Source: Mobula hypostoma
Lineage: Eukaryota
Direction: 5' to 3'
NCBI RefSeq assembly: GCF_963921235.1
Contig: NC_086097.1
Location: 69,318,001 to 69,378,000 of the forward strand
Length of the DNA: 60,000 bases
The translations under genes were made by a program, and so were the position numbers. Below the pieces are notes generated by a model, which was not told the origin of the DNA, made no database searches, and saw only the letters and a list, made by a program, of their open reading frames with translations. Positions 20,391 to 58,431 of the stretch are shown piece by piece (positions within the stretch are counted from its first letter, which is position 1; every line of letters starts with the position of its first letter).

Positions 20391-21140
20391 AACACAAGCA
20401 ACATACATCAAAGTTGCTGGTGAACGCAGCAGGCCAAGCAGCATCTATAGGAAGAGGTGCAGTCGACGTTTCAGGCCGAGACCCTTCGTCAGGACTAACT
20501 GAAGGAAGAGTGAGTAAGGGATTTGAAAGTTGGAGGGGGAGGGGGAGATCCAAAATGATAGGAGAAGACAGGAGGGGGAGGGAAGACAGGAGGGGGAGGG
20601 ATAGAGCCGAGAGCTGGACAGGTGATAGGCAAAAGGGGATACGAGAGGATCATGGGACAGGAGGTCCGGGAAGAAAGACAAGGTGGGGGGGAACCCAGAG
20701 GATGGGCAAGAGGTATATTCAGAGGGACAGAGGGAGAAAAAGGAGAGTGAGAGAAAGAATGTGTGCATAAAAATAAGTAACAGATGGGGTACGAGGGGGA
20801 GGTGGGGCATTAGCGGAAGTTAGAGAAATCGATGTTCATGCCATCAGGTTGGAGGCTACCCAGACGGAATATAAGGTGTTGTTCCTCCAACCTGAGTGTG
20901 GCTTCATCTTTACAGTAGAGGAGGCCGTGGATAGACATGTCAGAATGGGAATGGGATGTGGAATTAAAATGTTTGGCCACTGGGAGATCCTGCTTTCTCT
21001 GGCGGACAGAGCGTAGATGTTCAGCAAAGCGGTCTCCCAGTCTGCGTCGGGTCTCACCAATATATAAAAGGCCACATCGGGAGCACCGGACGCAGTATAT
21101 CACCCCAGTCGACTCACAGGTGAAGTGATGCCTCACCTGG
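20391..21140 (-). mobile_element. Penelope-like element 3' end: uninterrupted GIY-YIG endonuclease domain plus pLTR, in NUBPL intron 10
   Basis: ORF 20810-21140: FTCESTGVIYCVRCSRCGLLYIGETRRRLGDRFAEH...VAKHFN...EQHLIFRLGSLQPDGMN. Confidence 0.93.
20461..20496 (-). ncRNA. Minimal type I hammerhead ribozyme in a Penelope pLTR
   Basis: AGUC-CUGACGA-AGG gucucgg CCU-GAAAC-GUC^GACU: stem I AGUC/GACU, intact core, palindromic ACGU stem III. Confidence 0.85.
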
Positions 21141-21169
21141 GGACCCGAGTCACCCCAACCATAATCTAT

Positions 21170-21412
21170 TCCAGCAGCTACCATCCGGGAAATGGTACAG
21201 CAGCATAAAAGCCAGGACCAACAGACTCCGGGACAGCTTCTTCCACCAGGCCATCAGACTGATTAACTCAGGCTGATTTGAGTGTATTTCTATGTTACAT
21301 TGACTGTTCTATTTATTATAAATTATTATAAATTACTATGATTGCACATTTTGCACATGTAAAGATTTTTACTCATGTTATGTGAAGGATGTAAGAAATA
21401 AAATCAATTCAA
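21170..21412 (+). mobile_element. Rex1/Babar LINE 3' tail
   Basis: Reverse complement of the 1565-1830 tail. Confidence 0.7.
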
Positions 21413-21414
21413 TG

Positions 21415-21630
21415 AACACAAACAAAATGCTGGAAGAACTCAGCAGGCCAGGCAACAACTATGCAAAAGAGTACAGCCGATGTTTTGGGTTGAGACTCTT
21501 CAGCAAGACTGGAGAAAAAAAGATGAGGAGTAAATTCAAAAGATGGGGTAAGGGGAGGAAGAAACACAAGATAATAGGTGAAACTGGGAGGGGGAGGTGT
21601 GAAGTAAAGAGTTGGGAAGTAGATTGGTGA
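21415..21630 (-). mobile_element. Penelope pLTR fragment, older subfamily
   Basis: aaaatgctggaagaactcagcaggccaggca...; degenerate hammerhead at ~21475-21510. Confidence 0.7.
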
Positions 21631-22284
21631 ATTCTGACTGAACTGTGAAAGACAATCACCAGTCAATGCTCACATACCCCTAGGATAGCATACAGTACAA
21701 TGCAAAAGTCTTAGACACATTTGTATAGCTAGGACATGTTAATAGTAGCTCCATGTATTGCTGCCACAAAAAAAAATGGCATATGTGAGTGATGATAATC
21801 TGGATTCTGATATGGGTTTCTTTTGTGGACTGAGAGTGGGAAAGGGGCAGGGAGAAGGGAATCATGGTTGAAAAAGGGGAAGGCAGAAGGGAAGAACCAG
21901 AGAGACATTCTGTAATGATCAATAAACTAATTGTTTGGACTCAAATGACCTTGCCTGGTGTCTTAGGGCTGGGTCTATCTGCATCTGTGCCACCATCCCC
22001 CCACCCACCTCTGGCACTCTTAATCTGCCATCTGTGCCACAACCCTCCAGTGGCGCTCCACCCTCACCATTCCCAACAGTGTTTGCTCCCGCCAGATTTA
22101 CAAACTCACTCTCCGCTTCACATTGACAAATACAGTACTATGTATATATACACACACATCTACACATACCCAAGACTTTTGCACATTACTGTAGTTCAAA
22201 AGCAATATGCTGCTGCACAACATGACCACTTTCCAGAGCCATAAGGATTTACCCAACTTTGGCAAGTGGGTGAACCTACACCTC

Positions 22285-22400
22285 GGACCGCAGCGGTTCA
22301 AGAAGGCAGCTCATCACCACCTTCTCAAGGGCAACTAGGGATGGGCAATAAATGCTGGCTTAGTTGGTGACGCCCACATTCCATAAGTGAATTTAAAAAA
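22285..22400 (+). repeat. 3' tail of a CR1/L2-related LINE or SINE
   Basis: cagcggttcaagaaggcagctcatcaccaccttctcaagggcaactagggatgggcaataaatgctgg... ending in an A-run. Confidence 0.55.
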
Positions 22401-23189
22401 ACTAATGATTTGTGAAATGAACAGATCATCAAACTAAACCTACAATCTTTCAAATGTCTTAATCTAAGAAAATTAACCTTGTTTACGCTCAAATCAGTGC
22501 AAATTAATTAGCCTGATGGCCTGGTGGAAGAAGCTGTCCCAGAGCCCATTGGTCCTGGCTTTTATGCTGCGATACTGTTTCCCGGATGGTAGCAGCTGGA
22601 ATAGATTGTGGTTGGGGTGACTCGGATCCCCAATGATCCTTCGGGCCCTTTTTTCACAGCTGTCTTTGTAAGTGTCCTGAATTGTTAATCAATCTATTAT
22701 TTGTCATTATCAAAGCAGCATATGCCTTTAGTCAGAAGTCGCAAACGTCTGTATACTGTATCAATGGTATTCCTTAAGCTTTGAGTATTACTCACTGTTT
22801 TGTTATGTAAGTCTAGAGATGAATGTATCCTGATGATAACAATCAATATTTGACATTTCAGTGATGCTTAACTCAACAAGGACGTCATGAAGAAAGCACA
22901 AGGACATCCATTTTCTATTACAAGCATGGTATTACTGTATAGTCAAACCTGACAGACCCAGCACCTTGTGCGCTCCAGAGCTAGATAGAGATCACCTTAT
23001 GTAGTCTCACTGATAGAGATGAACTTGGCACAAAAATTATGTCTATAGGACCTTTTAACATTCCATGTTTCTTGATTTGATCACAGTCCAGAAGGCCATT
23101 TGGCTCCATACAAGAGCAATCCAACCTATTTCTTTCAGCTACATGTTCCATAGACATCCACCACACTGCTCCCCCCCCCCCCACCACAG

Positions 23190-23239
23190 TCAATCATGTT
23201 CATTCCCCAACCTCTGGTTCTCAATCATGTTCATTTCCC
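23190..23239. repeat. Short tandem duplication (~31-bp unit)
   Basis: caatcatgttcattccccaacctctggttct x2, plus a partial third copy. Confidence 0.8.
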
Positions 23240-23871
23240 CAACCTCTGGTTCTCAATCATTCCACTAACAGAAACATGTTATCTCCATCTAGTTTTCACT
23301 TTTCAGAACCCCTTAAAACTGCTTCAGTTCAATCTCAGAATTTCCAGTCTCTATTCATAAATGAAACCCATCATCTCCAGAATCATTTTAGTAAATCCTT
23401 TCTGTCTTTACCATCTTCCATAAACTGTGGAACCCAGAACTGGACGCAATACTCCAGTTTTACTTGAACTCGTTTTATATAGGTTCATCAAGACTTCCTC
23501 GCTCTTGAGATCTGAGCCTCTATTTACCATATGGTTTTTAACCACTTTTTCAAAATTCTCTGTCCCTTTCAAATCAACTGTGCAAACTGACCCCAGATTT
23601 TTGTTCTGGAAATGTTTTTAGAATAGTCTTCTAGTTTACATTTTGTTTTCTCATTCTTCCTGTCAGTGTATCACTGCATTTCTCAGCATTAAATTTCATC
23701 TGCCTGATCTATATAGAAATGCACAGAATAATTAGCTAGATTTCTCTGAAGTTTAAATGAGATATGCAATACTAAAAACACTACAGTACTATATTAAGTA
23801 TTGAGATTTTGTTGGCACTGATTAAGTGGAGGAAATAAATATTAAAAAGCTCTAACTAAAATGCACCATAC

Positions 23872-23954
23872 CTCTGGACTGTCTGGATGAGATACAACAA
23901 TAGGTTGGCCTTTATCTGACATTTCTCTTATATTTATATGTAGTGGAATATCAC
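23872..23954 (-). CDS. NUBPL: NUBPL coding exon 10 (83 nt)
   Basis: tttcag|(G)[27 protein letters not shown]|gtatgg. Confidence 0.96.
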
Positions 23955-24122
23955 CTGAAAAAAAGATAAATCAGTTTTATTTTCTAGACATGATGAAACA
24001 TAATTCTTAAGACAAAATAATGTTATCTTGTATGGTAAGAAATCAGATGCAAGATCATAACTGCTTTTAGATTCACATTGCGCCTCAATCAACTTAGTAT
24101 GAAAGATACGTTAATTTTGTAC

Positions 24123-24243
24123 CTAGGACATCTAACTGAAGCTTTGCTGCCAGCTCTTTTGCTCCTTCAGCCCCAAATATGTGAGTCTCATGTTTGCACT
24201 TGGGACATTGGAAAACACTCATGTTTTGAACAATACCGAGAAC
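24123..24243 (-). CDS. NUBPL: NUBPL coding exon 9 (121 nt), Fe-S-binding CxxC motif (CPKC)
   Basis: taacag|[41 protein letters not shown]|gtacaa. Confidence 0.97.
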
Positions 24244-24537
24244 CTGTTAAAAGAAAGAGGTGCTAAGTTTTAGAGATGTTGAAGTTCTAATTTATGTATA
24301 TTCATTTATCAAAAGGGTATGGTATTGGATAGACACAAAGCTAAACTTGATCAACTGATCATCGGCAGCCACAATTCACTTCAGTGATTACTGTTCTGAT
24401 TGTGGAGAATTTGTTTATACATCAGCAGGTTCACTATTGATACATAATTAATGATTCAAGACTGCAGTAATTTTCCATTTATATTTAGCACATGCTTGTT
24501 GCTTTATGTGGATTTGTGACCATAATGTATTGTATAA

Positions 24538-24640
24538 GCAACACACATCAAAGTTGCTGGTGAACGCAGCAGGCCAGGCAGCATCTGTAGGAAGAGGTGC
24601 AGTCGACGTTTCAGGCCGAGACCCTTCGTCAGGACTACAT
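24538..24640 (-). mobile_element. ~100-bp Penelope pLTR insertion with an intact hammerhead (24601-24636) and a 12-bp TSD
   Basis: TSD tgtattgtataa at 24526-24537 and 24641-24652; hammerhead identical to 20461-20496. Confidence 0.9.
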
Positions 24641-24899
24641 TGTATTGTATAACTTTAGTTCCAAGCCCATTTACTACCTTTCTCTAAAAAAATATTTCCT
24701 CCCACTTTGCAGAAGGGAACATTAAAAACATTTAAAAAACAGAATTAATTGGACACAGTTTGGACTGCAATTGTCCAAAAAATAATCTTGGCTCTAAAAG
24801 TGGATTTACTTAATTCTGGAACAAAAATTCTCTTTGATAAATGAAGACAATTGTTTAGGATTCAAACTCATTATGGATTCATGGGATAAAGGCCCTCTG

Positions 24900-26390
24900 T
24901 GTCTGTGGTTAGGATTCCATGTTGAAATAAATTTGTGTCACTTCAATACCAACCCTGGTTCTTAGTACTGTCTTAATATTCTGTTTCCCAAATCCACCCA
25001 CTCTTCTGACCTCAATTGCTATGAATTCACAAATGTTTTGGTCTCCAAGTTGAGACTCCATATGCAACAGCTGCCACTACTTCCTTAGGTTCTCCCAGAG
25101 ACCTTCCCACTCATACATTAATCATCCAATTATGAAGCATCTGCTCACAAAGTCAAATGTCCTCTAAATTCACTGCTTAATATTTTAATTTTTTAGTCAT
25201 ACAGTACCTCTTTTCACCTTTATTCTAACAGATTTAATTAATACTTTCTTCCTTAAGGATTGGAATTCTCTTTTCACCCCAACCTACATCATCACAAAAC
25301 TCAACATCAATCCATCCAGATTCACCAACTGTTGCCCAATCTTTGCAAAACTTGCGAAGTATTGCTGTTTCACAGTTCTTTCATCCACTTGGTTAAAATT
25401 CCTTACTCATGGCAATCCTGCTTCTGTCCTAGTCAAAACACTGGTCAAAATTGCAAACTTCATTCCTGGGGATGTCTCTCATAACCAAGGTACGTTGCCG
25501 ATTTTTGATCTTTTTTAAACCCACTGAGACTTTGAAGAAGAGACAAAATGCCATCCTTCTCCATCAAGTACTTATTTAACGTCTGAGAATAACCTTGAAT
25601 TATAACTCTACCACCCCCCCCCCCACAATCCAACTGTGGTGAAAACATCACCAGCAATCTTATTTTCATATTTCACTGGCAACTCCAATTCCCTTCAAGT
25701 TTGTCCAATAAAGATTTATCAATTATATGCTATTTCCTGATCATCTAGAGATACAAGGAGTCAACAGAAACTCTTTATTCGTAGATAACCAGTATTCCAA
25801 TTTGGTCTGTTCATAATTATTCCTAATAACATTCTCTTACCGACCATTCTTTTACACGAAGGTAATTTTCCCACAATTTACTCTGAACATCAGGAGAACT
25901 AAACTCAACTAGGTTTCAACTCTAACCTAGAGGAAGTCAGCTGTATCTGTGACCCGTACATCCTTGTCAACCAGTTACCTTGGGACCCAGAATGCAAAAT
26001 CTCTGCATTCTCTTGAACTGAATAGTTTTGGATCCAATATCCTGCTGAAGGCATACTACTAATTCTACAATATTACATCACTAGACTTGAGACAACAATG
26101 CTCTAAGCCCTTCTTGTCAACATAACAAACTTCAAAACATCTATCCTTCAAAATATTCAGTAATCTGAACCTTGCTCTACGTTGTACAAGGAGCACTTAA
26201 TTTTGTGAGCTCTAAATGCCTACGCGCCATCCCTACTTTTGTTGAAGACTTATTGGCTCCCAATCCTTTGGTTGTGAAAGTCTCAAAGTAAATCAAAGTT
26301 TGGATTTATTTCTTAGTATTTTCTCAACTTCAAAACAAATTTTGACCATATTTAAAATAAGGCTTTTTAACTTCAATGTCACAATGTAGC
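24900..26390 (+). mobile_element. Possible ancient L1/Tx1-type LINE remnant
   Basis: Weak RT-like FIHLVKIPYS...GCLS at 25260-25484; highly decayed. Confidence 0.3.
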
Positions 26391-26399
26391 ATTCTTAGT

Positions 26400-27090
26400 T
26401 ATAGAATCATAGAAAAGTACAGCACAGAAACAGGCCCTTCGGCTCATCTAGTCCATGCCGAACTATTTAAACTGCCTACTCCCTGAGAACTGCACTAGGA
26501 CCATAGCCCTCCATATTCCTACCAGCCACATACCTATCCAAACTTCTCTTAAAATTTGAAATCAAGCTTGCATGCACCACGTGTGCTGGCAGCTCATTCC
26601 ACACTCTCACGATCTTCTGAATGAAGAAGTTTCCCCTCATGTTCCCCTTAAATTTTTAACCTTTCACCCTTAACACATGAACACTGGTTGTAGTCCCACC
26701 CAACCTCAGTGGAAAAAGACTGCATTTACCCTATCTACAACTTTCATAATTTTGTATATCTCTATCAAATCTCCTCTCAGTCTTCTACATTCTAAAGAAT
26801 AAAGTCCTAAGCTATTTAATCTTTCCTTGTAACTCAGGTCCTCCAGACCCAGCAAATTACTTGTAAATTTTCTCTGTACTCTTTGAACCTTTTTTTTCTT
26901 GACTATAGATAGCAACCAAAACTGCACCAATACCAATACTCCAAATTAGGCCTCGCCATGTCTTATACAACGATCATCCGCAAATTTGCTGATCCAGTTA
27001 ACCACATTATCATCCAGATCGTTGATGTAAATGACAAACAACAAAGGACTCAACACTCCACTGAGTCCCTGTGGCACGCTACTAATCACT
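26400..27090 (-). mobile_element. CR1 LINE 3' fragment
   Basis: VQRKFT..LGLEDLSYKERLNSLGLYSLECRRLRGDLIEIYKIM. Confidence 0.85.
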
Positions 27091-27335
27091 AGAAAATAAT
27101 AGTACTGTATTTTTTTTTCTCTTTGAAGGAACCAGAAAAACTTACTTTAATTTATAAAGTTAATACAACGCCCAAATACCAACATATGATGCAGGCATGA
27201 ACATACACCTCAACAGTATCTGGAAACTGAATCTGAAAATCTATTCAACTCTCCTATTCAGAGATACACAAGAAGTGGATAAGTGAAAATATCATACTGT
27301 TGCACTTTTCTCACACTAAGGCATAGATTATCTAC

Positions 27336-28126
27336 TGTCATGTGTGACGCCAAGCAGAGCTACCGGATGGATGATGCTAATGAGGGAGATAACGGAAGAC
27401 AATGGAGAAACATTCAAAATGCTAATGAGAGAAGAGAGAGATTAACGAGAAAGAAACACAATTCAGATATTGACAGACCGTTTGCTTTGAACCTGAACTG
27501 TTTGAAGTTTGATGGACAGGTGATACCCCAGCAGGGGGATAAAAAGAGCAGGTTTGCTAAGGCACAACACACCACGATACCCTGGAAAGAGCAGTGTGCC
27601 CCCACGAGTTAGTGGGAGGACCGGTTCCCAGGAATCTGTCAGAGGCTCACAGGGTGTAAAGGTACGATCGGTGGGAACCTGGGGTGTGCGTCCGCCCTTG
27701 CCTGGGTGCCGGATTCACTGCGGAAGAACGATCGTATCCCGAACGGAGGGGGTCACAGTCGGTGACCACAGCGGGATCAGAAAACATCAAAAGGACTGCC
27801 CGAAACCAACCGTATATCTCTCTCTCCCCTCCCCCAACGGTACAACAACTGCGATTACTTCAAACTGCATAATCTGAACTGAACTCTGCTTTACTTAAGA
27901 CTGATCGTTTTACCCCTGGACTGTGATAGAGCTTGGTTGATTCCTATTACCCTATTTCTGTGTATATGTGTGTATTATCATTGCTAACCTGTTACATTTA
28001 TATCCTTGCAATTAGTGTACTGTATTACTTATTTCTTTAATAAAACTTTTAGTTCCTAGTAATCACAGACTCCAATGAGCGTTCCATTTCTGCGGGTTTG
28101 GCAACCCAGTTACGGGGTACGTAACA
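27336..28126 (+). mobile_element. Solo LTR (791 bp), Gypsy-like
   Basis: Begins TGTCA and ends TAACA; 4-bp TSD ctac at 27332-27335 and 28127-28130; AATAAA at 28039; many CpGs retained. Confidence 0.85.
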
Positions 28127-28165
28127 CTACACATACTCATCCAGTCAGATTCATGTTGAATTATA

Positions 28166-28326
28166 AACAAGAGAAAATCTGCAGATGCTGGACATCCAAG
28201 CAACACACACAAAATGCTGGAGGAACTTAGCAGGCCAGGCAGCATCCATGGAAAAGAGTACAGTCAACATTTCGGGCTCAGACCCTACAGCAGGACTGGC
28301 CTGCCGAATTCCTCCAGCATTTTGTG
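28166..28326. mobile_element. Penelope pLTR fold-back insertion with a 14-bp TSD
   Basis: TSD catgttgaattata at 28152-28165 and 28327-28340; inversion immediately after ...caggact. Confidence 0.85.
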
Positions 28327-28569
28327 CATGTTGAATTATATGCAGCTTCTATATCACATCTTATTGATGTGATTCAGAGTCCAAAGCAAGCTTACCATGA
28401 TGCAGCTCTACTTGGAATAATAATTCTACAATTTAAACAGTTAACGATATCGCCATCCTACATAGTTTGTTTCATTTCATTTGAGTTGGATTTTTCAATT
28501 TTGTATCTATTAATGTAACTATCTTAAATAGATACAACTGTTGTTTTGTTGAATAAGCTTACAGTCATA

Positions 28570-28815
28570 TGGGCAGCATACTGGAATGGCACAGCATTAC
28601 TGACCAGAGTTTCAAACCCAATCTCAGGTGCTGCCTGTTTGTACTTTGCACTTCCTCCCAGTGACCATGTGAGTTTTTTGCCACATCCAAAAAACTAGAG
28701 ATTGATAGGTTAATTTGTCGCTGTAAACATGTACGCGAGTGGCTGAATCTGGAGGGAACTGTAAGAAGTTAGTACTAACTAGGCAGGCTGATGGGCTAGT
28801 TACCTTGCTGTATGC
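28570..28815 (+). repeat. Decayed tRNA-derived V-SINE-like element
   Basis: B-box-like gagtttcaaaccc; core ctcccagtgaccatgtgagttttttgccacatccaaa. Confidence 0.5.
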
Positions 28816-29536: not shown

Positions 29537-31142
29537 CAGGTTTCCCCCACCATCCGAAGGTAGAGCGTTCCTATGAAACAGTTCATAAGCCAGAAGGTCG
29601 TAAAGCGAAGAAGCAATCACCATTTATTTATATGGGAAAAATTTGTGAGCGTACGCAGACCCAAAAATAACCTACCGAATCATGCCAAATAACACATAAA
29701 ACCTAAAATAACAGTAACATATAATAAAAGCAGGAATGATATGATAAATACACAGCCTATATAAAGTAGAAATACTTCTCTACAATCTTTGCCTGCACTG
29801 TTCTCCGTAGCGAAAGTCTCATGCAAGCGCTCTTGGCAGAAACACGGCGCAAGCACTCTCCAGTAACCTTTAAGCTATGAAGCTGACAAATCATACCAAA
29901 TAACGCATAAAAATACACAGCCTATATAAAGTAGAAATACTGTATGTACAGTGTAGTATTACTTACGGGAATCAGGAAGACAGCGCCAAGCACACTGATG
30001 ATGGCGTGTTAGGCTGAATCGGAGGTTGGGGTGGTGCAGTGGTCCCCACCCTCCGGGCAGCGAACCAATACCGATCCGCGAAGCATGCAGGGGTGCAGCG
30101 GTAGCCGGGAGGCACCCAGCACGTCTTTAAGAAAAAAGCCGAAATAAACAAGCTAATTAATTAGGTGCTGCCCAGCACGTAAATGTCGGCCCAGATCAGA
30201 GGCGACACACCAGCAATTGCCTCTGACCTGGGCCGACATTTACGTGCCGGGCGACACCTAATTAATTAGCTTGTTTATTTCGGCTTTTTTCTTAAAGACG
30301 TGCTGGGTGCCTCCCAGCTACCGCTGCATTTTTCATGGATCGGTATCTGTCCATGGCCCGGGGGTTGGGGTGTCAGGGCACTGGGGTGTCATCAAGTCAA
30401 CTTCTTCTATGTCTGCCTGCCTCGATGTCGAAGGTCGAGGTTTGTCATCTGCTGTGGCTGATGTGGAAGGCTTGAAAAACGACAGTATGCTTGCCTGCTA
30501 GCCTCGCGCATTTGTCTATCATACAGTTCTTTGTAAGCACTCAAACCATCCTGCAAATATACCCTAAACTGACGTACCCTTTCAAAATTAAAGTTGTACT
30601 TTATCATTGCAGCGAAAATCTCATGCAGTTGCTTCATGTGTTCAGTTCCTGGATGACTTCATTTTCGGTCCGTTCGCTACTACATTCGGTTTCGATTGTT
30701 ATCCTTTCCTCTTCCAATTGCATCAGCTCTTCATCTATCAGTTCTTGGTCATGGGATGCCAAACCTCTTCAACATCATCTTCGTCAACTTCCACAAGCCA
30801 AACTCACTTTGTCCTTACTTCGTTCACCACGATCGAAACGCTTAATTATGTCTAGTTTTACGCTAAGTGTAACACCCTTACGAGCTGTTTTAGGCTTTTC
30901 CGATACCTTAGAACTCATCTTGCTAATGGCTGCTCACAGGCACGTGTTTAAGCAATGCCGGCTAGAATGCCGTTCCGAATCCGGGGGACAGCAGCTGCTT
31001 GGGGCGTGTGCTACTTTTTTCTCGCACGCTGCTTTTTTCATAAGTGAAAACACCTCTTGTTAGCGAAAACAGGGAACTAATGTAGGTCTTTCATAACAGT
31101 GAGGTTTCATAAAGCGAATGTTCGAAAAGCAGGGGACACCTG
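29537..31142 (-). mobile_element. Non-autonomous Tigger/pogo DNA transposon (internal-deletion derivative)
   Basis: TA|caggtttcccc...ggggacacctg|TA; N-terminal CENP-B/psq-like MSSKVSEKPKTARKGVTLSVKLDIIKRFDRGE at ~30800-30918 joined directly to the C-terminal remnant (30407-30637); DDE domain absent. Confidence 0.88.
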
Positions 31143-31412
31143 TAACTTAGATAGCAAAATGAAAAAAAATCCATGGATTCCATTTGAAAAATTATTCATA
31201 TCAGAGAATCCCATTTCTAAATACTTCCTCTGCAAACAAATTTTCTTGCAATTAGAAGGTAGAAAGTCCTTCATAACCCAAATTCAACAATGCTATTTTT
31301 AGCTGCTACAGAAATTAAATATCATGCAATAATATGAATAAAATTATGTATTCCCAATACAGTTTTAATCATGAACCTAAAACAAGACATATTTTCCATA
31401 AATTGTACTTAC

Positions 31413-32712: not shown

Positions 32713-33224
32713 TAAATAAAAGCATTTCAGAAACTGCATAAAATGAATTCTCAATTATGAAGTCTCAAGTATGGGCATTTTTAGCAATGTCATGGTTTAA
32801 AAAATGCTTCTTTTCTATCTAGTCCAGCTATGTAAAGCTACAGCTGAGTACTTTGAAATTGGCTGAAGATCTTGAATCTGTAGCAATAAAATCTGCTGGA
32901 GGAAGCCAGTGGTTTCCTAAGGCAAGGTTTTGACCTGAAGCATCGACAATTCCTCCCTCTCCTCCCCACTATTCCTACTCCCTGATGCTATTTGACTCAC
33001 TGAGTTTCTCTTGCAGGTTGTTTGCTGTTTTAAATATTTTACTTTATTTTTTAGTCAAGGTAATGATACTGATAATTCATATTTCAAGCAGTATTTATTG
33101 AATAGTAAAAATAAGAAAAAACTAAAAATACACAAGAGGCCAGGCTAGCATATATGGAAAGAGAAAAGGAGCTGATATTGTATGTTGATAAGCTTCCATT
33201 GGAATATGGAAATGTTAGAAATCA

Positions 33225-33585: not shown

Positions 33586-33619
33586 TCAAAGTTCAAATAA
33601 ATTTATTATCAAAGTACAT

Positions 33620-34118
33620 TTGAGATGAGCTACAACCTGATTTGTAGCTCAGGTTGTGGATGTTGTTGTTGAGTAGCTCGGAGAGCTGGCTTGTTAACTT
33701 GCAGACGTTTCATTACCCAGCTAGACAACATCATCAATGCAACTTCGAATGAAATGTTGGTGATCGACACCGTTCATCTTTTATGTGTCCTGTGATTGGC
33801 ACGCGCGCATATGTGTGCGTGTGTGTGTGTGTGTGTATATATATATACACACACACACAAAACGACATAACGGTCAACTGGTCGACTAACAGCCAGGATA
33901 ACAATTATCACCTAACCAGATTTTAATGAGCCAATCCCAGATTACATAATCGATAACCCATAGAAATGGCATACACACACACAAATCACAGGAGACATAA
34001 AAATGAACAATGTAGATCACTAACATTTCACTCGAAGTTGCACTGATGATGTTGCCTAGTTGGGTAACGAAATGTCTGCAAGCTAACAAGCCAGCTCGCA
34101 GAGCCACTCAACAACAAC
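33620..34118. mobile_element. Second Penelope-family fold-back insertion (inverted pLTRs) with a 15-bp TSD
   Basis: TSD attatcaaagtacat at 33605-33619 and 34119-34133; diverged inverted arms at ~33660-33797 and ~33983-34120. Confidence 0.85.
34038..34081 (+). ncRNA. Type I hammerhead ribozyme, second family
   Basis: UUGCA-CUGAUGA-uGUUGCCU aguu GGGUAAC-GAAAU-GUC^UGCAA; mirror copy at 33699-33742 (-) has a C3U core change. Confidence 0.75.
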
Positions 34119-34289
34119 ATTATCAAAGTACATATATGCATGTTACCACATACTACCTTGAGATTCAATTTTTTGCAGGCATTTACATGAAAAAAAGAAA
34201 TAAAATAGAAACTATGAAAAACCATACATAAACAAAGACTGACAAACAACCAATATGCAAAACAAGACGAACTATGAAAATTTTAAAAA

Positions 34290-36605: not shown

Positions 36606-37249
36606 CTAAAGCAATAATGCTGAAACTGTGAAATACAACACCTTGCAGCTGCAAGAAATTGGAAATAAAGTGAATGCTGAAAGTACAAACAGCACTGTGG
36701 AAGGTAAGCAGAAGACTTAAAATTACAGGCTTATAAACCTTCATCAGGACTGCCTAGTACTGATGAAACCAGAAAGGCTGGTTCTCTGAAATTTTGGAAT
36801 TTGCTGTTGAGGCCTGAGGATTACAACCTGTCCAGATGGAAGGTGAAGCACTTTTTCCTCCTGAATTTTGGTTTACTAACCTTTCTCAGCCAATGTTATC
36901 ATAATTTAGGACCATCGATCTTGGTCTCAATTTCCTTTATTTTATGCACTGGTCTATTTTCCTGCAATATTGATTTCTAACTTTTCCTAGATAAGATGAA
37001 AGATTAAAGACTATCGACCCCAAACATCAATTGTTTCTCAGTCCAGAAATGTTGCTTGAGCATTAAACATTTCCAGTAGTTTCTTTATTGTTTTAAATTT
37101 GCTTATCAATTGACTGAAAAAGAGATGTGATGACAAAGCAGTTCTTTGTATAGTAGCCAGATCGATGCCAGATCAGGCTGAGATGTTGGGAATCACAGAA
37201 CAAAGCAGCACAGTGAAGGAAGGTCATGCAATGACACCTGGTCAGTACC

Positions 37250-38560
37250 AATTGAATTGAATTGACTTTATTACTTACATCCTTCACATACACGAGGAGT
37301 AAAACTCTTAACATTACATCCCCGTGTAAAAGTAATTTGTAATAAATAGCATGTACAATAGGACCGTCAATATAACTTAGAAAGACAACTCTATCAGTGT
37401 GAATTAATCAGTCTGATGGCCTGGTGGAAGAAGCTGTCCCAGAGCCTGATGGTCCTGGCTTTTATGCTGTGGTACAGTTTCCTGGATGGTAGCAGCTGGA
37501 ACAGTTTGTGGTTGGGGTGACTTGGGTCCCCACTATTTCTTCTGGCCCTTTTTACACACTTGTCTTTGTAAGTGTCCTGAATAGTTGGAAGTTCACATCT
37601 ATAGATGTGCTGGGCTGTCCGCACCACTCTCTGCAGAGTCCTGCGATTGACGCAAGTATAGTTCCCCTACCAGGCAGTGATGCAGCCAGTCAGGATGCTC
37701 TCAACTGTGCCCCTGTAGAAAGTTCTTAGGATTTGGGGGCCCACACCAAACTTCTTCAACCATCTGAGGTGAAAGAGGCACTGCTGTGCTTTTTTTAAAC
37801 CACACAGCCAGTATGTACACACCATGTGAGATATTCAGTGATGTGTATCCTCAGGAACTTAAAGCTGCTCACCCTCTCAACCCGAAATCCATTGATGTCA
37901 ATAGGGGTTAGCTTGTCTCCTTTCCTCCTGTAATCCACAACCAGCTCCTTTGATTTTGCGACACTGCGGGAGAGGTTGTTTTCTTGACACCACCATGTGA
38001 GGGTGATGACTTCTTCTCTGTAAGCTGCCTCGTTATTATTTGAGATTTGGCCAATCAATGGAGTATTGTCAGCAAATTTAATTAGCAGATTGGAGCTGTG
38101 GGTGGAAACACAGTCATGGGTATACAGAGAGTAAAGATGGGGGCTTAGGACACAGACCTGAGGGGCACCTGTGTTGAGGGTCAGAGGGGCAGAGATGAGG
38201 GAGCCCACTCTTACCACCTGTCGACGATCTGACAGGAAGTCCAGGATCCAGCTACCCAAGGCAGATTGAAGGCCGAGGTCTCTGAGCTTCTTGTCGAGCC
38301 TGGAGGGAATTCTGATGTTGAATGCGAAACCGTAGTCCGAGAACAGCATTCTCACAGAAGCATCCTTCTTCTCCAGATGTGTAAGGACAGTGTGTAGAGC
38401 TGTGACAATTTGTGTCACCTATCGATCAGTTATGTCGGTAGGCGAATTGTAGGGAGTCCAGTGTGGGTGATAGCAAGCTGCAGATGTAGTCCTTGACCAG
38501 CCTCTCAAAGCATTTGCTTATTATTGAGGTGAGTGCGACAGGATGCCAGTCGTTCAGACA
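37250..38560 (-). mobile_element. Rex1/Babar LINE (RT domain to 3' tail)
   Basis: 207-aa ORF TALHTVLTHLE...TGAPQVCVLSP...IKFADN; (aattg)n tail. Confidence 0.9.
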
Positions 38561-50256: not shown

Positions 50257-50700
50257 TATATTTGTTTTATGCCTCAAATTTAAATTATTCATAAATATGG
50301 TCATTAGCCCTTGACTAGATGTATAGAGAATAAAAAAAAGCACCTGATTTACAGCTAATCTAGTAAGAAAGGAGAGAGGGATATGCTGAACTCCAAAACT
50401 GATACATGGTGAAAGATCTTGATACTTTTTGAGAATGGAAGAGTGGACATGACCTCATATTTAACTTCACTGTGGTCAATACTTCTTAGTGCTTCAGGGA
50501 GATGTCCATAACTACATCAGGAAAAAGCTGTCCTTTGTTATAGCAGTCAATCTTTATTTTTCTCTGTGAACAGACTAACCATGGTTCACCATTTTCTCAA
50601 GTTCTGCATAATATTTGAAAATGACAGGTTTATTAGTCCTACAAATAATTTTTTGCTGTGACAAATTATTAATACTGAATACATTAGTGTAACTGCTAAC

Positions 50701-51176
50701 AACAGGAATTCTGCAGATGCTGGAAATTTAAGCAACACACATAAAAGTTGCTGGTGAACGCAGCAGGCCAGGCAGCATCTCTAGGAAGAGGTGCAGTCGA
50801 TGTTTCAGGCCGAGACCCTTCATCAGGACTAACTGAAGGAAGAGTGAGTAAGGGATTTGAAAGTTGGAGGGGGAGGGGGAGATCCAAAATAATAGGAGAA
50901 GACAGGAGGGGGAGGGATGGAGCCAAGAGCTGGACAGGTGATAGGCAAAAGGGGATACGAGAGGATCATGGGACAGGAGGTCCGGGAAGAAAGACAAGGG
51001 GGGGGGGGAACCCAGAGGATGGGCAAGGGGTATATTCAGAGGGACAGAGGGAGAAGAAGGAGAGTGAGAGAAAGAATGGGTGTATAAAAATAAGTAATAG
51101 ATGGGGTACGAGGGGGAGGTGGGGCATTAGCGGAAGTTAGAGAAGTCGATGTTCATGCCAGCAGGTTGGAGGCTGC
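50701..51176 (-). mobile_element. Penelope 3' fragment (pLTR with a hammerhead at 50795-50830) and an 11-bp TSD
   Basis: Near-identical to 20391-20860; TSD taactgctaac at 50690-50700 and 51177-51187. Confidence 0.9.
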
Positions 51177-51324
51177 TAACTGCTAACTACATTTTCCCAT
51201 TAAGGACTGCACAAATCGAAATTGTTTTGAAATTTATTTATAATACCAGAAATTTTTACACAAATATTTCATCTTACACAATGCCTCAAAATAAATTATA
51301 CATTCCAAAAGGAAATATACCTAC

Positions 51325-51359
51325 CGATTCGAAGGTTGCTAATCCCAAAGCCAAATTCA
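51325..51359 (-). CDS. NUBPL: NUBPL coding exon 3 (35 nt)
   Basis: tttcag|TG AAT TTG GCT TTG GGA TTA GCA ACC TTC GAA TCG|gtaggt = (V)NLALGLATFES; in phase with exon 2. Confidence 0.93.
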
Positions 51360-52126
51360 CTGAAATTTAGATAAACTTTTGTTAGTATGCCATACTTGTA
51401 TATCAGAATTTCAAAACCAACTGAGCAGCTTGAGAATTTTCAGTTGGCAAACAAATAATAAGCATTCTCTGCATCTCCACAATTCATTTCCATTTAAGAG
51501 GAAAAGAAAAATTTCTAGTCGATAAATTTCAGATGTCTCTTTACTACATTACTTTTCCCCTTTTGCAAGTGATTACAGAGAAATGGAGCATCCACATGGA
51601 TGTGTTTGTAAAGAAGTAGTCTAACAAAGACTGTGCCACAATTCAATGTATTTCCATTATAATACAACAAAACCATTTATATCTGGAATAATGAAATCAC
51701 AGTTCTGGTTGCCTTCAATTTGCTGACCTTTAGAATGGTGGCAGATTTCGAGATGTATTAAAAGGTCTGTTCATCAAACCAATGGAAACACTGACTTCAT
51801 TTATACTAACAGCTTTAAACTGTTGACATTTACTGAAGTGCTTCAGGTACTTTTGTAAAACTTATAAAATTGATTGATATGAATTTTTGAGTTTTGTTGC
51901 TTTATTTCTAACACCATGGGATGTTCCATTTGCATAGTTTTAAAAATAAACACAAGGCAATAATTCATTTTTATTTTTATGATTCAAATACAGAATTGTT
52001 TACTACCATTCCCAAATTTTTCAAGACTAGATCCACGGCAAAAAGAATGCCATTTCCCAAAATATTTTGTAAGCCTTATATTGCATATTATAAAATGAAA
52101 CAGTTGACATTTAGAAAACTATATAC

Positions 52127-52274
52127 CTGCAGTAGTTGATTTTCCAACACCTCCTTTTCCAGAGGCTACAACAATAATATGTTGCACTCCAGGAATTGCT
52201 TTTTGCTTTGGGAGTCCCCGAGCCATCAGTCGTTTTTGCCTCTCCTGTGGTGATTCAGTACTGGATCCTGAAGA
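52127..52274 (-). CDS. NUBPL: NUBPL coding exon 2 (148 nt), contains the deviant Walker A motif GKGGVGKST
   Basis: [49 protein letters not shown]; acceptor ttttaag|TCT, donor GCAG|gtatat; matches recalled human [38 protein letters not shown]. Confidence 0.97.
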
Positions 52275-52390
52275 CTTAAAACAATAATGCACAAAAATAA
52301 GTGGAAATACAAACAAAAGCACACTACCAGTGAACTTCGAAAAACAACAGCAAAAACAATGCTGAAAATACTCAACAGGTTAGTCAACAT

Positions 52391-53167
52391 CATGTTCCCT
52401 TTAAAGTGTGCTCGTGTGCATGCACACACATCTTTCGCTACTAGTGCACAAAGGAATTTAAACAGCACACCAAAAGTTGTCACACTCTATCTCATTGGCA
52501 TGTTAAGTATGTTTCAAGATTGTATACAATCACATTTCCTTTTCTGGTTTTTGATGTGGACAGTGTTTACAATGTGGAGTTTGCGATGATATGTCTGCAG
52601 ACTTTAGAACTGGCTTATTTATAATGTTTTTATTGAAGAAATTATTGCTTCATTATGTCAAATTCCAAAGAAGCAAAAGGGCATGAAGCATAAAGTGCAA
52701 AAGAGTTGCCAATTTGTTTAAAGCAGAATGGCTTAATGAAACAGTAGACACTGCTACACCGAAAACTCATGCGGTCACGAACGTACAATACCGAAACTGG
52801 AGTTACCTGCATGTATTGCTGTGATGTAAAAGTTGCTGGAGAATTTGCAAGTGGGAAGTAGTGGAGTGACATTTGCAAACTTAACTTTTTAAAGCGTCAT
52901 TTAGCAAGCAAATCACAAAAGCTCTGGCAAGCAAATCCTTCATTACCTGCTGCAGGCCTGCTATGTATGTTTTGTGAGAATGCAGATGAACGAGATTGAA
53001 AATGATAAAACCCAGAGGAGATCAAAGTTCTTATTGACAGTATTTTGTTTGCTGTTAAAATGAATACTTTGATATAGAAAATTCAGTGCACACATGTCAC
53101 TGGGCAAAAAATTGCACAGCACAAGATTTTTGCTCACATTGGTCATTACAAATTAGAGGGAACATTG
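52391..53167 (+). mobile_element. Non-autonomous hAT DNA transposon
   Basis: TIRs catgttccctttaa / ttagagggaacattg; 8-bp TSD gtcaacat (52383-52390) / gtcaagat (53168-53175); zinc-finger-like remnant TGVTCMYC...FLKRHLASKSH. Confidence 0.8.
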
Positions 53168-53239
53168 GTCAAGATTTGTGGAGAAATATACATTCATGAT
53201 TATTCATCAGAACTTGGCACGTTCTGATGAAATGTCAAA

Positions 53240-53735
53240 TACAAGAGATTTTGCAGATGAAAACCCAGGGTAAAAAATACAAAATGCTGGAGGAACTCAT
53301 CAGATCAGGTAGCAATGAAAATGAATAAACAGTTGACATTTCAGGGCAAGACCCTTCACCAGGACTGGAAAGGAAGAGAGAAGCTCGAATAAGATGGTGG
53401 GGAAAGGGAAGAAGGTGATAGGTTAAGCCAGGTGGGTGGGGGAGGGGAGATTATGTGAGAACAGGTGGGAGGTGATAGGTGGAAAAGGTAATGAGATAAA
53501 GATGAAGACTCTGATAGGAGGGGAGAGTGGACAATGGGAAGGAGGAGGGCACCAGGGAAGGTGATAAGCAGGTGAGGAGAAGTAAGGGGGGTGCCAGAGT
53601 GGGGGATGGAAGAGGAAAGCAGAGAAGAAAAAATTACAAGTTAGAAAAATAAATGTTCATCAATTTGGAGGCTACCCAGACAGAATATGAGGTCTTGCTT
53701 CTCCAACCTGAGAGTGGCCTCATTATGGCAGTAGA
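53240..53735 (-). mobile_element. Penelope 3' fragment, older subfamily
   Basis: EATLRLEKQDLIFCLGSLQ remnant at 53660-53725; pLTR with a degenerate hammerhead at ~53331-53366. Confidence 0.8.
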
Positions 53736-53839
53736 TGTTACTTAGCTGAAATGGCAGATTGTTCCAAATTTTTCCTGACCTCCTTTAGCCAGACTCATTT
53801 CGTGCAGAAACTACAATAATCTGGAATGCAGAGCAATCT

Positions 53840-56220
53840 TGAGTATAGTATTTGAAAGCGAGAATAACACTACACCTGCGCTAATTCTTGCAGCAACTGG
53901 TGACCCTGTGATGTCTGTCTCAGATGCCAACATCAGAAAATCTTTCAAGAGGGTGAACCTTCACAAGGCATCAGTCCTCAATGGTGTACCTGATAGGGCA
54001 CTGAAACCCTGTGCCAACCATCTGACAGGACTGTTTAAGGTCATCTTCAATCTTTCACTGCCGCAGTCAGCAGTTATCACCTGCTTTAAAAAGGCAACAA
54101 TCATACCAGCGCCAAAGAAGAGCAGGGTGAGTTGCCTCAACAACTATTGCCCAGTTGCACTCACATCTACTGTGATGAAGTGCTTTGAGAGGTTGGCCAT
54201 GGCTAGAATCAACTCCTGCTTAAGCAAGAATCTGGACCTGCTGTAATTTGCCTATCGCCACAGTAGGTGTACAGCAAATGCCATTATACTGGCTCTCCAC
54301 TCAGCCTTTGAGCACCTCAACAATACCTACACCAAACATGAGGAAATCTGCAGATGCTGGCATTTCAAGCAACACACATAAAAGTTGCTGGTGAACGCAG
54401 CAGGCCAGGCAGCATCTCTATGCTGTGCCTCTCCTAGAAATACCTACACCAGGTCACTGTTCGTTACTTACAGCTTAGCTCTTAAAACCATCATGCCTTC
54501 AGTACAACTCAACAAGCTCCAAAACCTGGGCTTCCGTACCTCCCTTTGCAACTGGATTCTTGACTTCCTCATTAAGAGATCACAGTCAGTGCAGATTGGA
54601 AATAACAGCTCCTCCTCGTTGATGGTCAACTCAAGGATTCGTGCTTAGTCCACTGCTATACTCTCAATACACCCACAATTGTATGGCTAGGCACAGTTCA
54701 AATACCATCTATAAATTTGCCAGTGACACAACTACAGTTGGCAGAATTTCAGATGATGACAAGGAGGCACACAGGAGGTGAGACAGGCCAGTTAGTTGAG
54801 TGGTGTCGCAGTAACAAACCTTGCACTCAACGTCAGTAACACCAAGAAATTGATAGCAGATTTCAGGAAGGGGAAGTCAAGGGAATGCACACCAGCCCTC
54901 ATTGATCAGCAGTGGAAAAGGTGAGCAGTTTCAAGTTCCTGGGTGTCAACATCTCTGAAAATCTATCCTGGACCCAGCATATTGCTGAAATTTAGTTCAA
55001 AGTACATTAATTATCAAAGTACGCATACTTTAAACAACCTTGAGATTTATTTCCTTACAGGCAGCCATGAAACAAAGGACCCTATAGAACACATTAAAAA
55101 CAAAGGAAGACCTTCAAATACCCAACGTGCAGAGAGAGAGAAAAAATAAATCATACAAACAATAAAGTAAGCAAACAGCATTCACAACTAAAGTTCACAA
55201 AGCCAATTCAGAAGTCCACAGATGCCGATTCAGAAGGCCTTGGTCCAGCACAGAGTCAAGCCAATCCCACAAGGCAGCAAGCCAAACCAACTCATCTCTT
55301 GCCTCTGACCTCGATCGTTTCAATCTGGCCCGGTGCTTAAATCATCCAAACCACATCACCCTCAAGCTTGGGCTCAGTTGCCTTGATAAGGCCAGTACTC
55401 AACCTTCCCAAATTGGCTTAACTCTTATTGAACAAACCTCGGACCTTTCCACACCTCCGCTCTGCTGCACTGAATTGCCTCCAATTCCGCTCCAGCCCAG
55501 ACATACTGCATCCTTTCTGCCCCAGCAAGACACCAGTCACACCACAAAAATGCTAGATCATACAGGCGATTCCGCTCAACTCCGACAGGAAAGCCACAGG
55601 TCACTGTTTGCAGTGTTCATTTACCAGAAAAAGTGTGAACAATAAAGTATTTAGTTGCTTTTTTTGTTTCATCAGCCACCAGAAAGTTGTCACTCAAACC
55701 AGTAAGTAGCACCATCTTACAAAGAAGGCATGACAGTGGCTATATTTCATCAGGAGTTTGAGGAAACTTAGTATGACACCAAAAACTCACAAAATTCTAC
55801 AGATGTACAATGGAGAGTATTCTAACTGGCTGCATCACCATCTGGCACGGAGAGGTCACAGCACGGGATTGAAAAAAGCTGCAAAAAATTACAAACTCAG
55901 CCAGCTCCATTATGGGCACTGGCCACCATCATTGTGGTTCCCCATCATTCACGATGTGTCCTCTTCTCGTTGCAAGGTGGTGGTACAGGAGCCTGAAGAC
56001 ACACACTCAACACTTTAGGAACAGCTTCTTCCCCACCACCATCAGATCATGTACATTATCTCAATCATTTTTTTCTCTTTTTGCACTACTTATTTAATTT
56101 TTTAAAATATATGTTATTGTAATTTATAGTTTCCTTTATTATGGATTGCAATGCACTGCTGCCGCAATACAAAAAAATTCATGACATATGCCAGTGATAT
56201 TAAACCTGATTCTGATTATC
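53840..56220 (+). mobile_element. Rex1/Babar LINE with nested insertions (Penelope piece at 54335-54438; another repeat at ~54985-55715)
   Basis: CLNNYCPVALTSTVMKCFERL; tail attaaacctgattctgatt; the nested Penelope piece has the TSD aatacctacacca at 54322-54334 and 54439-54451. Confidence 0.85.
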
Positions 56221-58293
56221 GTGCAATTGCCATTACGCCTTCCAAAATAATTAATAGTATTAGAGGAAACTCTTGTTTAAACAGGAATGACTAAAATATT
56301 AACAATTCCCAAGTATTAAAAATGTATCTGTAGTTTGTTCGTAAGTTTGCAGCTAATTGTTTAATCTGAGCAAAATCAAATTCCTCAAAAAAAGATTGTT
56401 CAAAGCATAAACAAGTTGCACCCACACCTCCCTTACATTTACGTACTCACTTTTTTAATACACTACTTGAATTAGTAAAAGATAGTTCCCTGCCAGCACT
56501 CTACACATTGTACTTAACTGTATATCCAGATCAGAAATGCCAGTTTTCACTGTGTGGCTCATTCATTAAGGTTCATCAGATTGCAAATGCCTAGGCATCC
56601 AACACTAACCCATTGACCAGTGAGCAATTAAGAGTTGATTCTACAGAAATCAATTAGCTTCATTTTCTAGTCATTGAAATGCACGATTTGATGCTGTAGT
56701 TCAGCCATCTGTTCAGTAACCAGATGCTCCATGGTACAGCATGATTGCTTCACTTCATGCCAGATTTTTCATACAGCTTCAGCTAAAGGATTTGCATGGC
56801 AAATTCAAGTACAAACCCAACCCAGCAAACCTCACAAAGCACCAGATGCAATTTGCTGATTCAAATCCTGTTGGAAACTGTAGTGCAAGGTACAGCCCAG
56901 TAATGCTGACTACAGCTATGCCCCTGTTTTGTTAAAATCAAATAATTTAATACAATTCAAGTCAATTTCTTCTTTGCTCCTCATAATTTTCATCTCTCCA
57001 TTCTTGACTGACTGAATCTTTCAATATTACAAGGTTTCAGCTGACTTGATATATTTTCTAAACGACAGAGCCACAGCACCCACCCCACTGCCATACCAGA
57101 CACTGAAGTAGCTCTTCAGAATGCTTTGTAGAAGTTTTTGAATGTTTTCGTTGACAAACCAAATCTTCTCGAACTCCTAATGAAATATAGCCACTGTCTT
57201 GTCTTCTTAATAGATGTATCAATATGTTGCCACCAGGCTAGGTCCTCAGAGAAAGACACCCAGAAACCTGAAATTGCTCACTCCCTCCACTTTTGATTCC
57301 TTTGAGGCTTGATTTGTGTACCCTCGTCTTACCCTTCCTGGAGTCCAGAATCTGTTCTTTGGTCACTCAACAATATAAGGAGCAAGAGAAGGCCATATGG
57401 CCCCACGCTCTCCCCCACACCTCCCAGCCTGCTTCAGCTTATTTGTTCACAAACCTGATAAGCTACTTTCTTCAGTGACTCAATTGGTAGGATTGGCCAG
57501 AGTCAAATACTGTGAGCTTTGTGATTCAACCACTCAACTGTATGGAAAGAACAAATATTTATACTGATGCTCCACAATTAAGACACTGCTTAACTGTAAG
57601 AGGACCATCCAGCTAACTGATTTGCAGGGCTATTCTCTCTTCCCCCATTTCTTAAGTTGCTATTTTTTTCTCTTCTAATCAGAGGCAAGTTTTATGATGC
57701 ATGACATTTTGGAAAATGATAACAATATACTCTATTGAAACGCTTGCAGACATGTCCTGAGGAATCATCAGCTTCGAGTCCAAATAATTTCTTCAATACC
57801 CATTTAAAAAGAAATACTGATATCTTCCAGCTTCTTGTTCACTGCAGATTTGCACCACCAGGAAGTTGCTGTGATTTCTTCCAAAAGAAAAGACACAAAT
57901 ATTTGTCTGACTTCTCCATGGTTTCCATAATCTAAATTTTCCTGTGCAAGACTATAAGAAATTCAAATTAGCTTTATCTAATCTATTTTTTAAAAACATA
58001 CTAACTTATCAGATATACTTTAAAGAGGAGAATAACAAAATATAGTTAATGGAATGCAGTAAGACTTTAACTAGATCATAAATGTAATATATATGTAATA
58101 TAAAATATCTCACTGCATGGTAACCCTCAAGTAATGATATACCAAGTGAATTAACTGTGCACAATTTATAATAATGAATCATGAATGAAAAAGAAAGCTA
58201 AAGAAATGCAAGTCATTTGAAATATGATGCTGAAGATGGCAAGACTATTTCTCGATCAGTTTTTTGTCCATATACCTGTCTAACATCCCATTA

Positions 58294-58431
58294 CAAACGA
58301 GAGAAAATCTGCAGATGCTGGAAATCTGAGCAACACAGAGTCCTGCCGTAGGGTTTCGGCCCGAAATATCGACTGTAGTTTTTTCCACAGATACTACTGG
58401 TCTGCTGAGTTCCTCCAGCATTTTGTGTGTG
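58294..58431. mobile_element. Penelope pLTR fold-back fragment
   Basis: Minus-oriented pLTR end joined at ~58339 to a plus-oriented piece starting agtcctgccgtagggtttcggcccgaaatatcgact (degenerate hammerhead). Confidence 0.7.

What the first reader, a model, noticed from the sequence alone, without database searches (positions are those of the whole stretch)
20391..58431. A family of tiny TSD-flanked Penelope derivatives whose breakpoints cluster at the hammerhead ribozyme
Seen: at least five 100-220 bp insertions of the same pLTR type break at or beside the ribozyme. 24538-24640 ends at the outer edge of stem I; 28166-28326 inverts right after stem I; 58294-58431 restarts at stem I; 54335-54438 inverts just beyond the cleavage site; 467-684 folds on the core. 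Four have clean 12-16 bp TSDs. Established knowledge: Penelope-like elements carry minimal hammerheads in their pLTRs and often show inverted 5' pLTRs. Inference: ribozyme processing or structure defines a short non-coding RNA unit that is mobilised in trans, a retrozyme/SINE-like parasite of Penelope, rather than the product of random 5' truncation.
Basis: partly seen in the sequence, partly recalled or inferred. Interest (0 to 1): 0.7.

Follow-up and report, generated by a model that had tools for sequence, protein, structure and literature searches.

The report
Penelope stubs ending at ribozyme edge
These short inserts are real stubs of a Penelope-type jumping gene, and three of them stop at the same letter just in front of its ribozyme motif rather than at the predicted cut site, likely because the element's RNA starts there and the copying enzyme runs off its capped end, which would be a testable clue to how these poorly understood elements move.

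Summary
The five inserts exist at the stated coordinates. Four have perfect 12-16 bp TSDs. They are 3'-anchored stubs of a Neptune-type Penelope-like element. Three end exactly at the 5' outer edge of hammerhead stem I (-32 from the predicted cut), the 467 hairpin joins at -28/-26, and 54335 ends at +16. The clustering exceeds chance (p 0.001-0.03), and junctions in public contigs of two organisms also favour this edge. A genome-wide loose-end count was confounded or underpowered. The edge is not the cleavage site. The stubs come from two subfamilies about 70% identical (one clade rejected, p 5e-5), so they are not one retrozyme or SINE family. Best reading (0.55): reverse transcription starts at two internal 'tail' sites, from one or both cut target ends, and runs off a capped RNA 5' end at -32. 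An extra G at several junctions fits this. Main rival: the edge is also a splice-acceptor-like site. This scan noted the same pattern before on other DNA of this genome and of one other. I did not find it in the papers searched.

The parts
467..684 (.). Head-to-head stub, young subfamily: left arm +101..-28 (with tail), right arm -26..+65 (no tail), 91-bp perfect palindrome; 16-bp TSD at 451-466 / 685-700
24538..24640 (-). Single-arm stub, young subfamily, -32..+69, plus 4 extra nt; 12-bp TSD at 24526-24537 / 24641-24652
24601..24636 (-). Minimal type I hammerhead motif, intact core; 24636 = position -32
   Evidence: descriptor
28166..28326 (.). Head-to-head stub, older subfamily: main arm +101..-32 (ends 28297), second arm +28..about +58, 4-nt microhomology at the joint; 14-bp TSD; damaged ribozyme core
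58294..58431 (.). Head-to-head stub, older subfamily: tail-only arm +101..+60, one untemplated G (58338), main arm from -32 (58339) to +64; 13-bp TSD with 2 mismatches; damaged ribozyme core
54335..54438 (.). Stub, young subfamily: main arm +101..+16, then a short sense patch weakly matching +3/+8..+19; 13-bp TSD; does not reach stem I edge
20391..21140 (-). Long young copy, +69..-676: end of GIY-YIG ORF, pyrimidine-rich UTR, hammerhead (20461-20496); abuts another repeat at its upstream end
20813..21139 (-). C-terminal GIY-YIG endonuclease (109 aa, CCHH-type), 94% identical to a ray protein that has a Neptune/Nematis-type zinc-finger linker
50700..51176 (-). Long young copy, about +101..-377, 10-bp TSD; hammerhead at 50795-50830
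10981..11584 (.). Long head-to-head older copy: short arm +95..+24, long arm about -443..+95; joint far from the ribozyme; no TSD found
21414..21630 (-). Older copy running to about -150
53240..53760 (-). Oldest clear copy, about +100..-483

Best explanation
The inserts are stubs of a Neptune-type Penelope-like retrotransposon that share two 3' ends and often one 5' end at the outer edge of hammerhead stem I, likely made when the element's enzyme starts reverse transcription inside the 5' pLTR of the RNA and runs off a capped transcript start predicted to lie at that edge. Steps: (1, inferred) Pol II starts at the A at -32, so the ribozyme is the first 36 nt of the RNA. (2, shown here as TSDs; enzyme step known for PAc) the endonuclease cuts both strands of AT-rich DNA 12-16 nt apart. 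(3, shown here as two 3' ends about 30-36 nt apart; enzyme step known for PAc) RT starts at the outer (+95..+101) or inner (+57..+70) tail site. (4, inferred) on a 5' pLTR only 100-135 nt of template remain, so RT runs off the cap and sometimes copies it as an extra G; on a 3' pLTR it continues into the UTR and ORF and gives the long copies. (5, inferred) a second cDNA primed from the other cut end is joined head-to-head, often through a few bases of microhomology or after trimming. Ribozyme cleavage is not needed for these ends.
For: Three stubs from two subfamilies end at -32 and a fourth at -28/-26. In public contigs at 96% likeness, 7 of 12 shown joints (of 22) leave the element at -28..-32: P 2e-8 under uniform, 4e-6 if all 10 unseen lie elsewhere. 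A head-to-tail joint of the exact unit -32..+101 has the most contigs (9 and 5, two organisms) of the 15 joints shown of 104. Cap-like extra base: 58294 has one untemplated G before -32, and 5 of 6 distinct shown joints at -31/-32 begin with C on the cDNA strand (P 0.005 at 25%). An extra G marks full-length L1 5' junctions (PMC11702581, passage). 14 of 15 arm 3' ends fall at two sites, as with the two internal RT starts, both-strand cutting and cleavage-independent insertion shown in vitro for PAc (PMC11167929). An initiator-like YYANWYY (consensus recalled) is centred on -32 in 5 of 5 copies that keep upstream sequence; D. virilis Penelope has an internal TATA-less promoter in its pLTR (PMC2377424).
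Against: No RNA 5' end was observed; contigs cannot show one. The initiator-like motif is weak: it occurs 5 more times in the 316 nt upstream. The same spot is a polypyrimidine tract plus YAG in all five copies, and in D. virilis the intron's 3' end maps to the 5' end of helix I while transcription starts further upstream. The large loose-end peak at -32 (932 and 693 contigs) is confounded, because older subfamilies diverge from the reference at exactly that point. At 96% likeness -32 is not among the 12 loose-end rows shown of 82, with only 56 partly laid contigs in the DNA run. In one search the far sides of the joints cluster at +5/+6 (5 of 12) and -2/-5 (3 of 12), close to the cut site; their orientation is not given, so a role for cleavage or stem I pairing in some joints is open. 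24538 has 4 extra bases and no cap-like G. The extra-base counts are small and come from shown rows only.
Confidence: 0.55

Rival explanations
1. The edge is a 3' splice site. Spliced or lariat-processed RNA, or a protein mark near the junction, ends the cDNA at about -30.
For: Polypyrimidine tract plus YAG at -33..-31 in 5 of 5 copies with upstream sequence; subfamily homology drops upstream of this point; the D. virilis intron ends at the 5' end of helix I (PMC4209133).
Against: 24538 and 58294 keep the AG, so they end at -32, not -30; no shared upstream exon is joined to the stubs; no skip joint from about -30 to an upstream site among the 15 shown of 104 (covering 345 nt upstream); splicing does not itself create a 5' end.
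Confidence: 0.15
2. RT stalls or falls off at the folded or protein-bound hammerhead on a long RNA, and stem I microhomology guides repair.
For: The break coincides with the structure; PAc protein assists hammerhead folding; many joint partners lie at +5/+6, just past the 3' strand of stem I.
Against: A barrier should stop RT at its near (3') foot, about +4, not after the whole motif is copied; stem I is only 4 bp (about -4.6 kcal/mol for the ribozyme fold); does not predict an extra G or tandem units.
Confidence: 0.12
3. One reading: a ribozyme-processed short RNA is a separate retrozyme/SINE-like family mobilised in trans.
For: Discrete unit and tandem joints; 28166 and 58294 share two core changes, which a common master could explain; 54335 has a patch starting near +3; non-autonomous PLE derivatives are known.
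Against: Ends are at -32, not +1; one clade rejected, p-AU 4.7e-5; young stubs are 94-98% identical to long ORF-bearing copies; every insert has a different layout; no tandem array in the window.
Confidence: 0.1
4. The palindromes arise by self-priming (fold-back) on an antisense template, as proposed for rotifer PLEs; this concerns the inverted arms only.
For: 467 arms are 100% identical over 91 bp and share a private variant; model in PMC3846280 (passage).
Against: 467 has a 1-nt loop; second arms stop repeatedly at the inner tail site rather than copying the tail; it does not explain the single-arm 24538 stub.
Confidence: 0.05
5. Ordinary random 5' truncation plus selection by the reader.
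For: Five of 10 copies run far past the ribozyme; the in-window p is only 0.03 under a short-biased null; no clean genome-wide count was obtained here.
Against: Three ends at the same base in two subfamilies; independent joint clustering; exact tandem unit.
Confidence: 0.05

Closest known systems
EN+ Penelope-like elements, Neptune/Nematis type (Craig et al. 2021, PMC8557442; Arkhipova et al. 2013, PMC3846280; passages read)
   Same: C-terminal GIY-YIG, zinc-finger linker in the nearest homologue, 5' truncation, head-to-head inverted second copy, one-sided 30-40 bp tail, TSDs, solo pLTR-like pieces.
   Different: These passages do not describe 5' ends piling at the ribozyme's outer edge or a cap-like extra G; the rotifer paper explains palindromes by antisense self-priming.
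PAc (Poseidon of Anolis) in vitro system (Frangieh et al. 2024, PMC11167929; main text read)
   Same: Two internal RT start sites that bound the tail, both strands cut and extended, AT-rich targets, cleavage not required, no RNA reads ending at the cut site.
   Different: Different clade; its ORF starts in stem II; the main text does not address where cDNAs end or a transcription start at stem I.
[quoted passage not shown]
   Same: 4-bp stem I, no helix III, palindromic centre; mostly single motifs in truncated copies, some in close pairs on opposite strands.
   Different: Proposes cleavage and circles; notes an intron end, not a transcript start, at helix I in D. virilis.
Animal non-LTR retrozymes (PMC7229834, passages; Li et al. 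2026 bioRxiv 10.64898/2026.07.22.740005, parts 1-3 of 5)
   Same: Short, non-coding, hammerhead-bearing, PLE pLTR-related.
   Different: Defined as tandem arrays with a ribozyme in at least two units and circular RNAs; the window's inserts are single or head-to-head, TSD-bounded, and not cut-site-defined.
Minus-strand strong-stop DNA of LTR retroelements (recalled) and L1 twin priming / cap-derived extra G (PMC11702581, passages)
   Same: Works like it: priming near the RNA 5' end and run-off at the cap; a second cDNA primed from the other target end.
   Different: No tRNA primer; the short cDNA is target-primed and integrates; both arms start at fixed tail sites and overlap in sequence.

Membership tests
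EN+ Penelope-like element | GIY-YIG endonuclease at the ORF's C-terminus | tested here: met
   PF01541, 25.3 bits over cutoff 22.6, in the long copy 20813-21139
EN+ Penelope-like element | PLE-type reverse transcriptase in the same ORF | tested here: inconclusive
   Not in the window; homologues 94% and 66% identical over the EN carry an upstream RT-like YIDD region, read by eye
EN+ Penelope-like element | pLTR with minimal hammerhead | tested here: met
   Descriptor hits in 3 copies, 0.05 expected; activity not tested
EN+ Penelope-like element | 30-40 bp optional tail, head-to-head arms, TSD | tested here: met
   14 of 15 arm 3' ends at two sites; 5 inverted inserts; TSDs
Neptune clade | Zinc-finger-like motif in the RT-EN linker | tested here: inconclusive
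   Present in the 94%-identical homologue P0001; the window copy starts after it; motif shared with Nematis
Neptune clade | Placement in the RT phylogeny | not tested
   No RT in the window; no tree against reference clades
Non-LTR retrozyme | Tandem array with a ribozyme in at least two consecutive units | tested here: not met
   None in the window; one tandem joint type seen in 9 and 5 public contigs
Non-LTR retrozyme | Unit ends set by ribozyme cleavage | tested here: not met
   Ends at -32, core retained
Non-LTR retrozyme | Expressed as circular RNA | not testable with these tools
   Only contigs were available for RNA-like runs
SINE-like non-autonomous family | Descent from a shared short master (one clade, fixed structure) | tested here: not met
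   4 stubs held together rejected, p-AU 4.7e-5, 9 rows, 85 columns; layouts differ
SINE-like non-autonomous family | Own promoter active in the short copy | not testable with these tools
   Needs a reporter assay or CAGE

The most novel reading that the evidence does not exclude
The 100-135-nt unit from the cap at stem I to the tail carries its own internal promoter, so stubs are re-transcribed and re-copied in trans; template jumps from the cap back to the tail site make head-to-tail dimers with two hammerheads 133 nt apart, which is how animal non-LTR retrozymes are born from Penelope elements without any cleavage step.
Probability: 0.2. Interest if true: 0.7.

Novelty: new variant of a known kind. 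Interest (0 to 1): 0.45.

Why it matters
How Penelope-like elements finish an insertion and build tandem or inverted pLTRs is still undefined (PMC8557442). If the -32 edge is the capped RNA start, the stubs are integrated run-off intermediates. They would fix the transcript start, show that the 5' pLTR is a template, and give predictions for the existing in vitro system: a cap-dependent extra G, run-off length set by the distance from cap to tail site, and two cDNAs from two cut ends. They would also explain why short hammerhead-bearing monomers are so common and could be mis-filed as retrozymes or SINEs.

Tried and rejected
Rfam: no hammerhead match at E up to 1. Pattern scans of viral and metagenome contigs: 0 matches. 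Raw-read runs X21 and X22 gave 2 and 0 laid reads, no test. The loose-end peak at -32 at 85% likeness was rejected as evidence because its loose letters are older-subfamily UTR (agreement 0.4); the peaks at +4/+5 likewise show older-subfamily sequence. Summed contig depth drops across -32 about 2-3 fold in DNA runs and about 10 fold in the RNA-like run X10, but the tool states that this is no copy number or expression level, so it was not used. The 96% loose-end table showed no -32 or -30 row (12 of 82 shown), so it neither showed the peak nor showed splicing. Folding the 101-nt unit does not give the hammerhead as its minimum-energy structure. Four weak older relatives were not counted. Cleavage-defined ends, a single master, and a tandem retrozyme were considered and rejected as above. 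Not found in print: 8 answered searches gave no paper describing PLE 5' ends at the ribozyme edge; the library lacks most subscription papers, and I read no supplements (Frangieh Figs S1-S2 and Cervera 2014 supplements may bear on this).
Full report
Scope. No assembly is held for this window, so the work rests on the 60-kb window, two layings of public contigs, one protein search and papers. Positions are counted on the ribozyme-sense strand, with the predicted cleaved C as -1 and the first base of stem I as -32.

What the element is. The long copy at 20391-21140 (minus strand) ends an ORF with a GIY-YIG domain, followed by a pyrimidine-rich UTR and a minimal type I hammerhead. Its nearest named homologue is a devil-ray protein, 94% identical over the endonuclease, whose linker has the cysteine motif described for Neptune and Nematis. 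The host is therefore likely a ray (inference), and the element Neptune-type; the clade was not placed on a tree. BLAST and a profile search find 10 clear copies and four weak older relatives; the weak ones were not counted.

Observation. The five inserts are real, with four perfect 12-16 bp TSDs and one with two mismatches. Three main arms end at -32, the 467 palindrome joins at -28/-26, and 54335 ends at +16 with a short patch near +3..+19. Five other copies extend to about -150, -377, -443, -483 and -676; these ends are alignment ends, and the last abuts another repeat. Four of 10 ends within 8 nt has probability 0.0008-0.03 depending on the null. Second arms break at +24, +28 and +60. At the other end, 14 of 15 arms start at one of two sites, +95..+101 or +57..+70, which is the known PLE tail.

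Outside data. Contigs of two organisms hold the family in large numbers (143,835 and 135,725 laid). The most contig-supported joint shown (9 and 5 contigs; 15 of 104 joints shown) is a head-to-tail repeat of exactly -32..+101. At 96% likeness, 7 of the 12 shown joints with extra letters (22 in all) leave the element at -28..-32. Against or neutral: the big loose-end peak at -32 is confounded by subfamily divergence at that point; the 96% loose-end table shows no -32 row among 12 of 82, with only 56 partly laid contigs; and two raw-read runs gave no test. So the genome-wide peak is supported by joints but was not cleanly counted here. The far sides of the joints cluster at +5/+6 and -2/-5. Their orientation is not given, and I cannot say whether this reflects stem I microhomology or jumps onto cleaved RNA.

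Not cleavage, not one family. Cleavage would leave a 5' end at +1 and remove the core, but the stubs keep the whole core. Two stubs ending at -32 share two changes in the catalytic core. For PAc, ribozyme mutants insert normally in vitro and no RNA reads were found at the cut site. The stubs fall into a young and an older subfamily about 70% identical; young stubs are 94-98% identical to long copies, and a single stub clade is rejected (p-AU 4.7e-5, 9 rows; the 467 right arm and 54335 were left out). Each insert has its own layout, which points to assembly during insertion.

Mechanism. The simplest account is run-off. RT starts inside the pLTR at the tail sites, as shown for PAc, which also cuts and extends both strands. 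On the 5' pLTR only 100-135 nt of RNA lie upstream if transcription starts at -32. An untemplated G precedes -32 in 58294, and 5 of 6 distinct shown joints at -31/-32 begin with the complementary C (one contig seen in both calls was counted once; a joint at -33 does not begin with C). An extra G is the cap signature at full-length L1 junctions. An initiator-like motif is centred on -32 in 5 of 5 copies with upstream sequence, but it is common in this UTR. Head-to-head inserts fit a second cDNA primed from the other cut end: in 467, 28166 and 58294 the left arm starts at the outer site and the right arm at the inner site. The start site, the cap and the two-cDNA step are inferred, not shown. 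The strongest rival is a splice acceptor at the same place: polypyrimidine plus YAG in all five copies, and an intron ending at helix I in D. virilis. It does not by itself make a 5' end, and the stubs carry no shared upstream exon.

Earlier notes. My run-off reading was written down before one search returned several unreviewed notes with the same reading for other DNA of this genome, and one for another genome. The two-cut-ends step was not in my written reading. One note's figure, a quarter to a third of about 100,000 copies, I could not check. None is counted as support.

Papers seen. PMC11167929 and PMC4209133, parts 1-2 of 4 each; bioRxiv 10.64898/2026.07.22.740005, parts 1-3 of 5; PMC3846280, PMC8557442, PMC2377424, PMC7229834 and PMC11702581, passages only; no supplements. 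The initiator consensus, splice-site consensus and strong-stop analogy are recalled.

Verdict. A real and non-random feature of a known element class. What remains is a testable clue to PLE transposition, not found in the papers searched. Interest 0.45.

Noticed in passing
window 33620-34118: Head-to-head insert of a second, unrelated hammerhead-bearing repeat (motif at 34039-34080 with an 8-bp stem II, mirror copy near 33680-33740) with a 15-bp TSD (33605-33619 / 34119-34133). Its arms run more than 60 nt upstream of the ribozyme, so its joint is not at the ribozyme edge.
   Followed up: partly
window 36717-36790: Weak old relative (E 0.02) that may be a head-to-head join with both arms meeting near -32; not counted.
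   Followed up: no
window 4110-4239, 16294-16428, 32915-33027: Much older relatives of the same pLTR with decayed ribozyme cores.
   Followed up: no
window 28280-28297 and 58339-58356: Two older stubs share the same two changes in the hammerhead core, suggesting a subfamily that spread with a non-canonical ribozyme.
   Followed up: partly
window 50698 joined to 50795, in public contigs: Opposite-strand joint between the outer 3' end and position +4 in 3 and 4 contigs; unexplained.
   Followed up: no
window 30161-30261: About 100-bp inverted repeat, picked up only as weak microRNA-like Rfam matches; possibly a small MITE or fold-back insert.
   Followed up: no
window 21138-21413 and 22484-22686: Inverted pair of another repeat family (also at 1564-2027 and 37247-37696); one copy abuts the upstream end of the long Penelope copy.
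   Followed up: no
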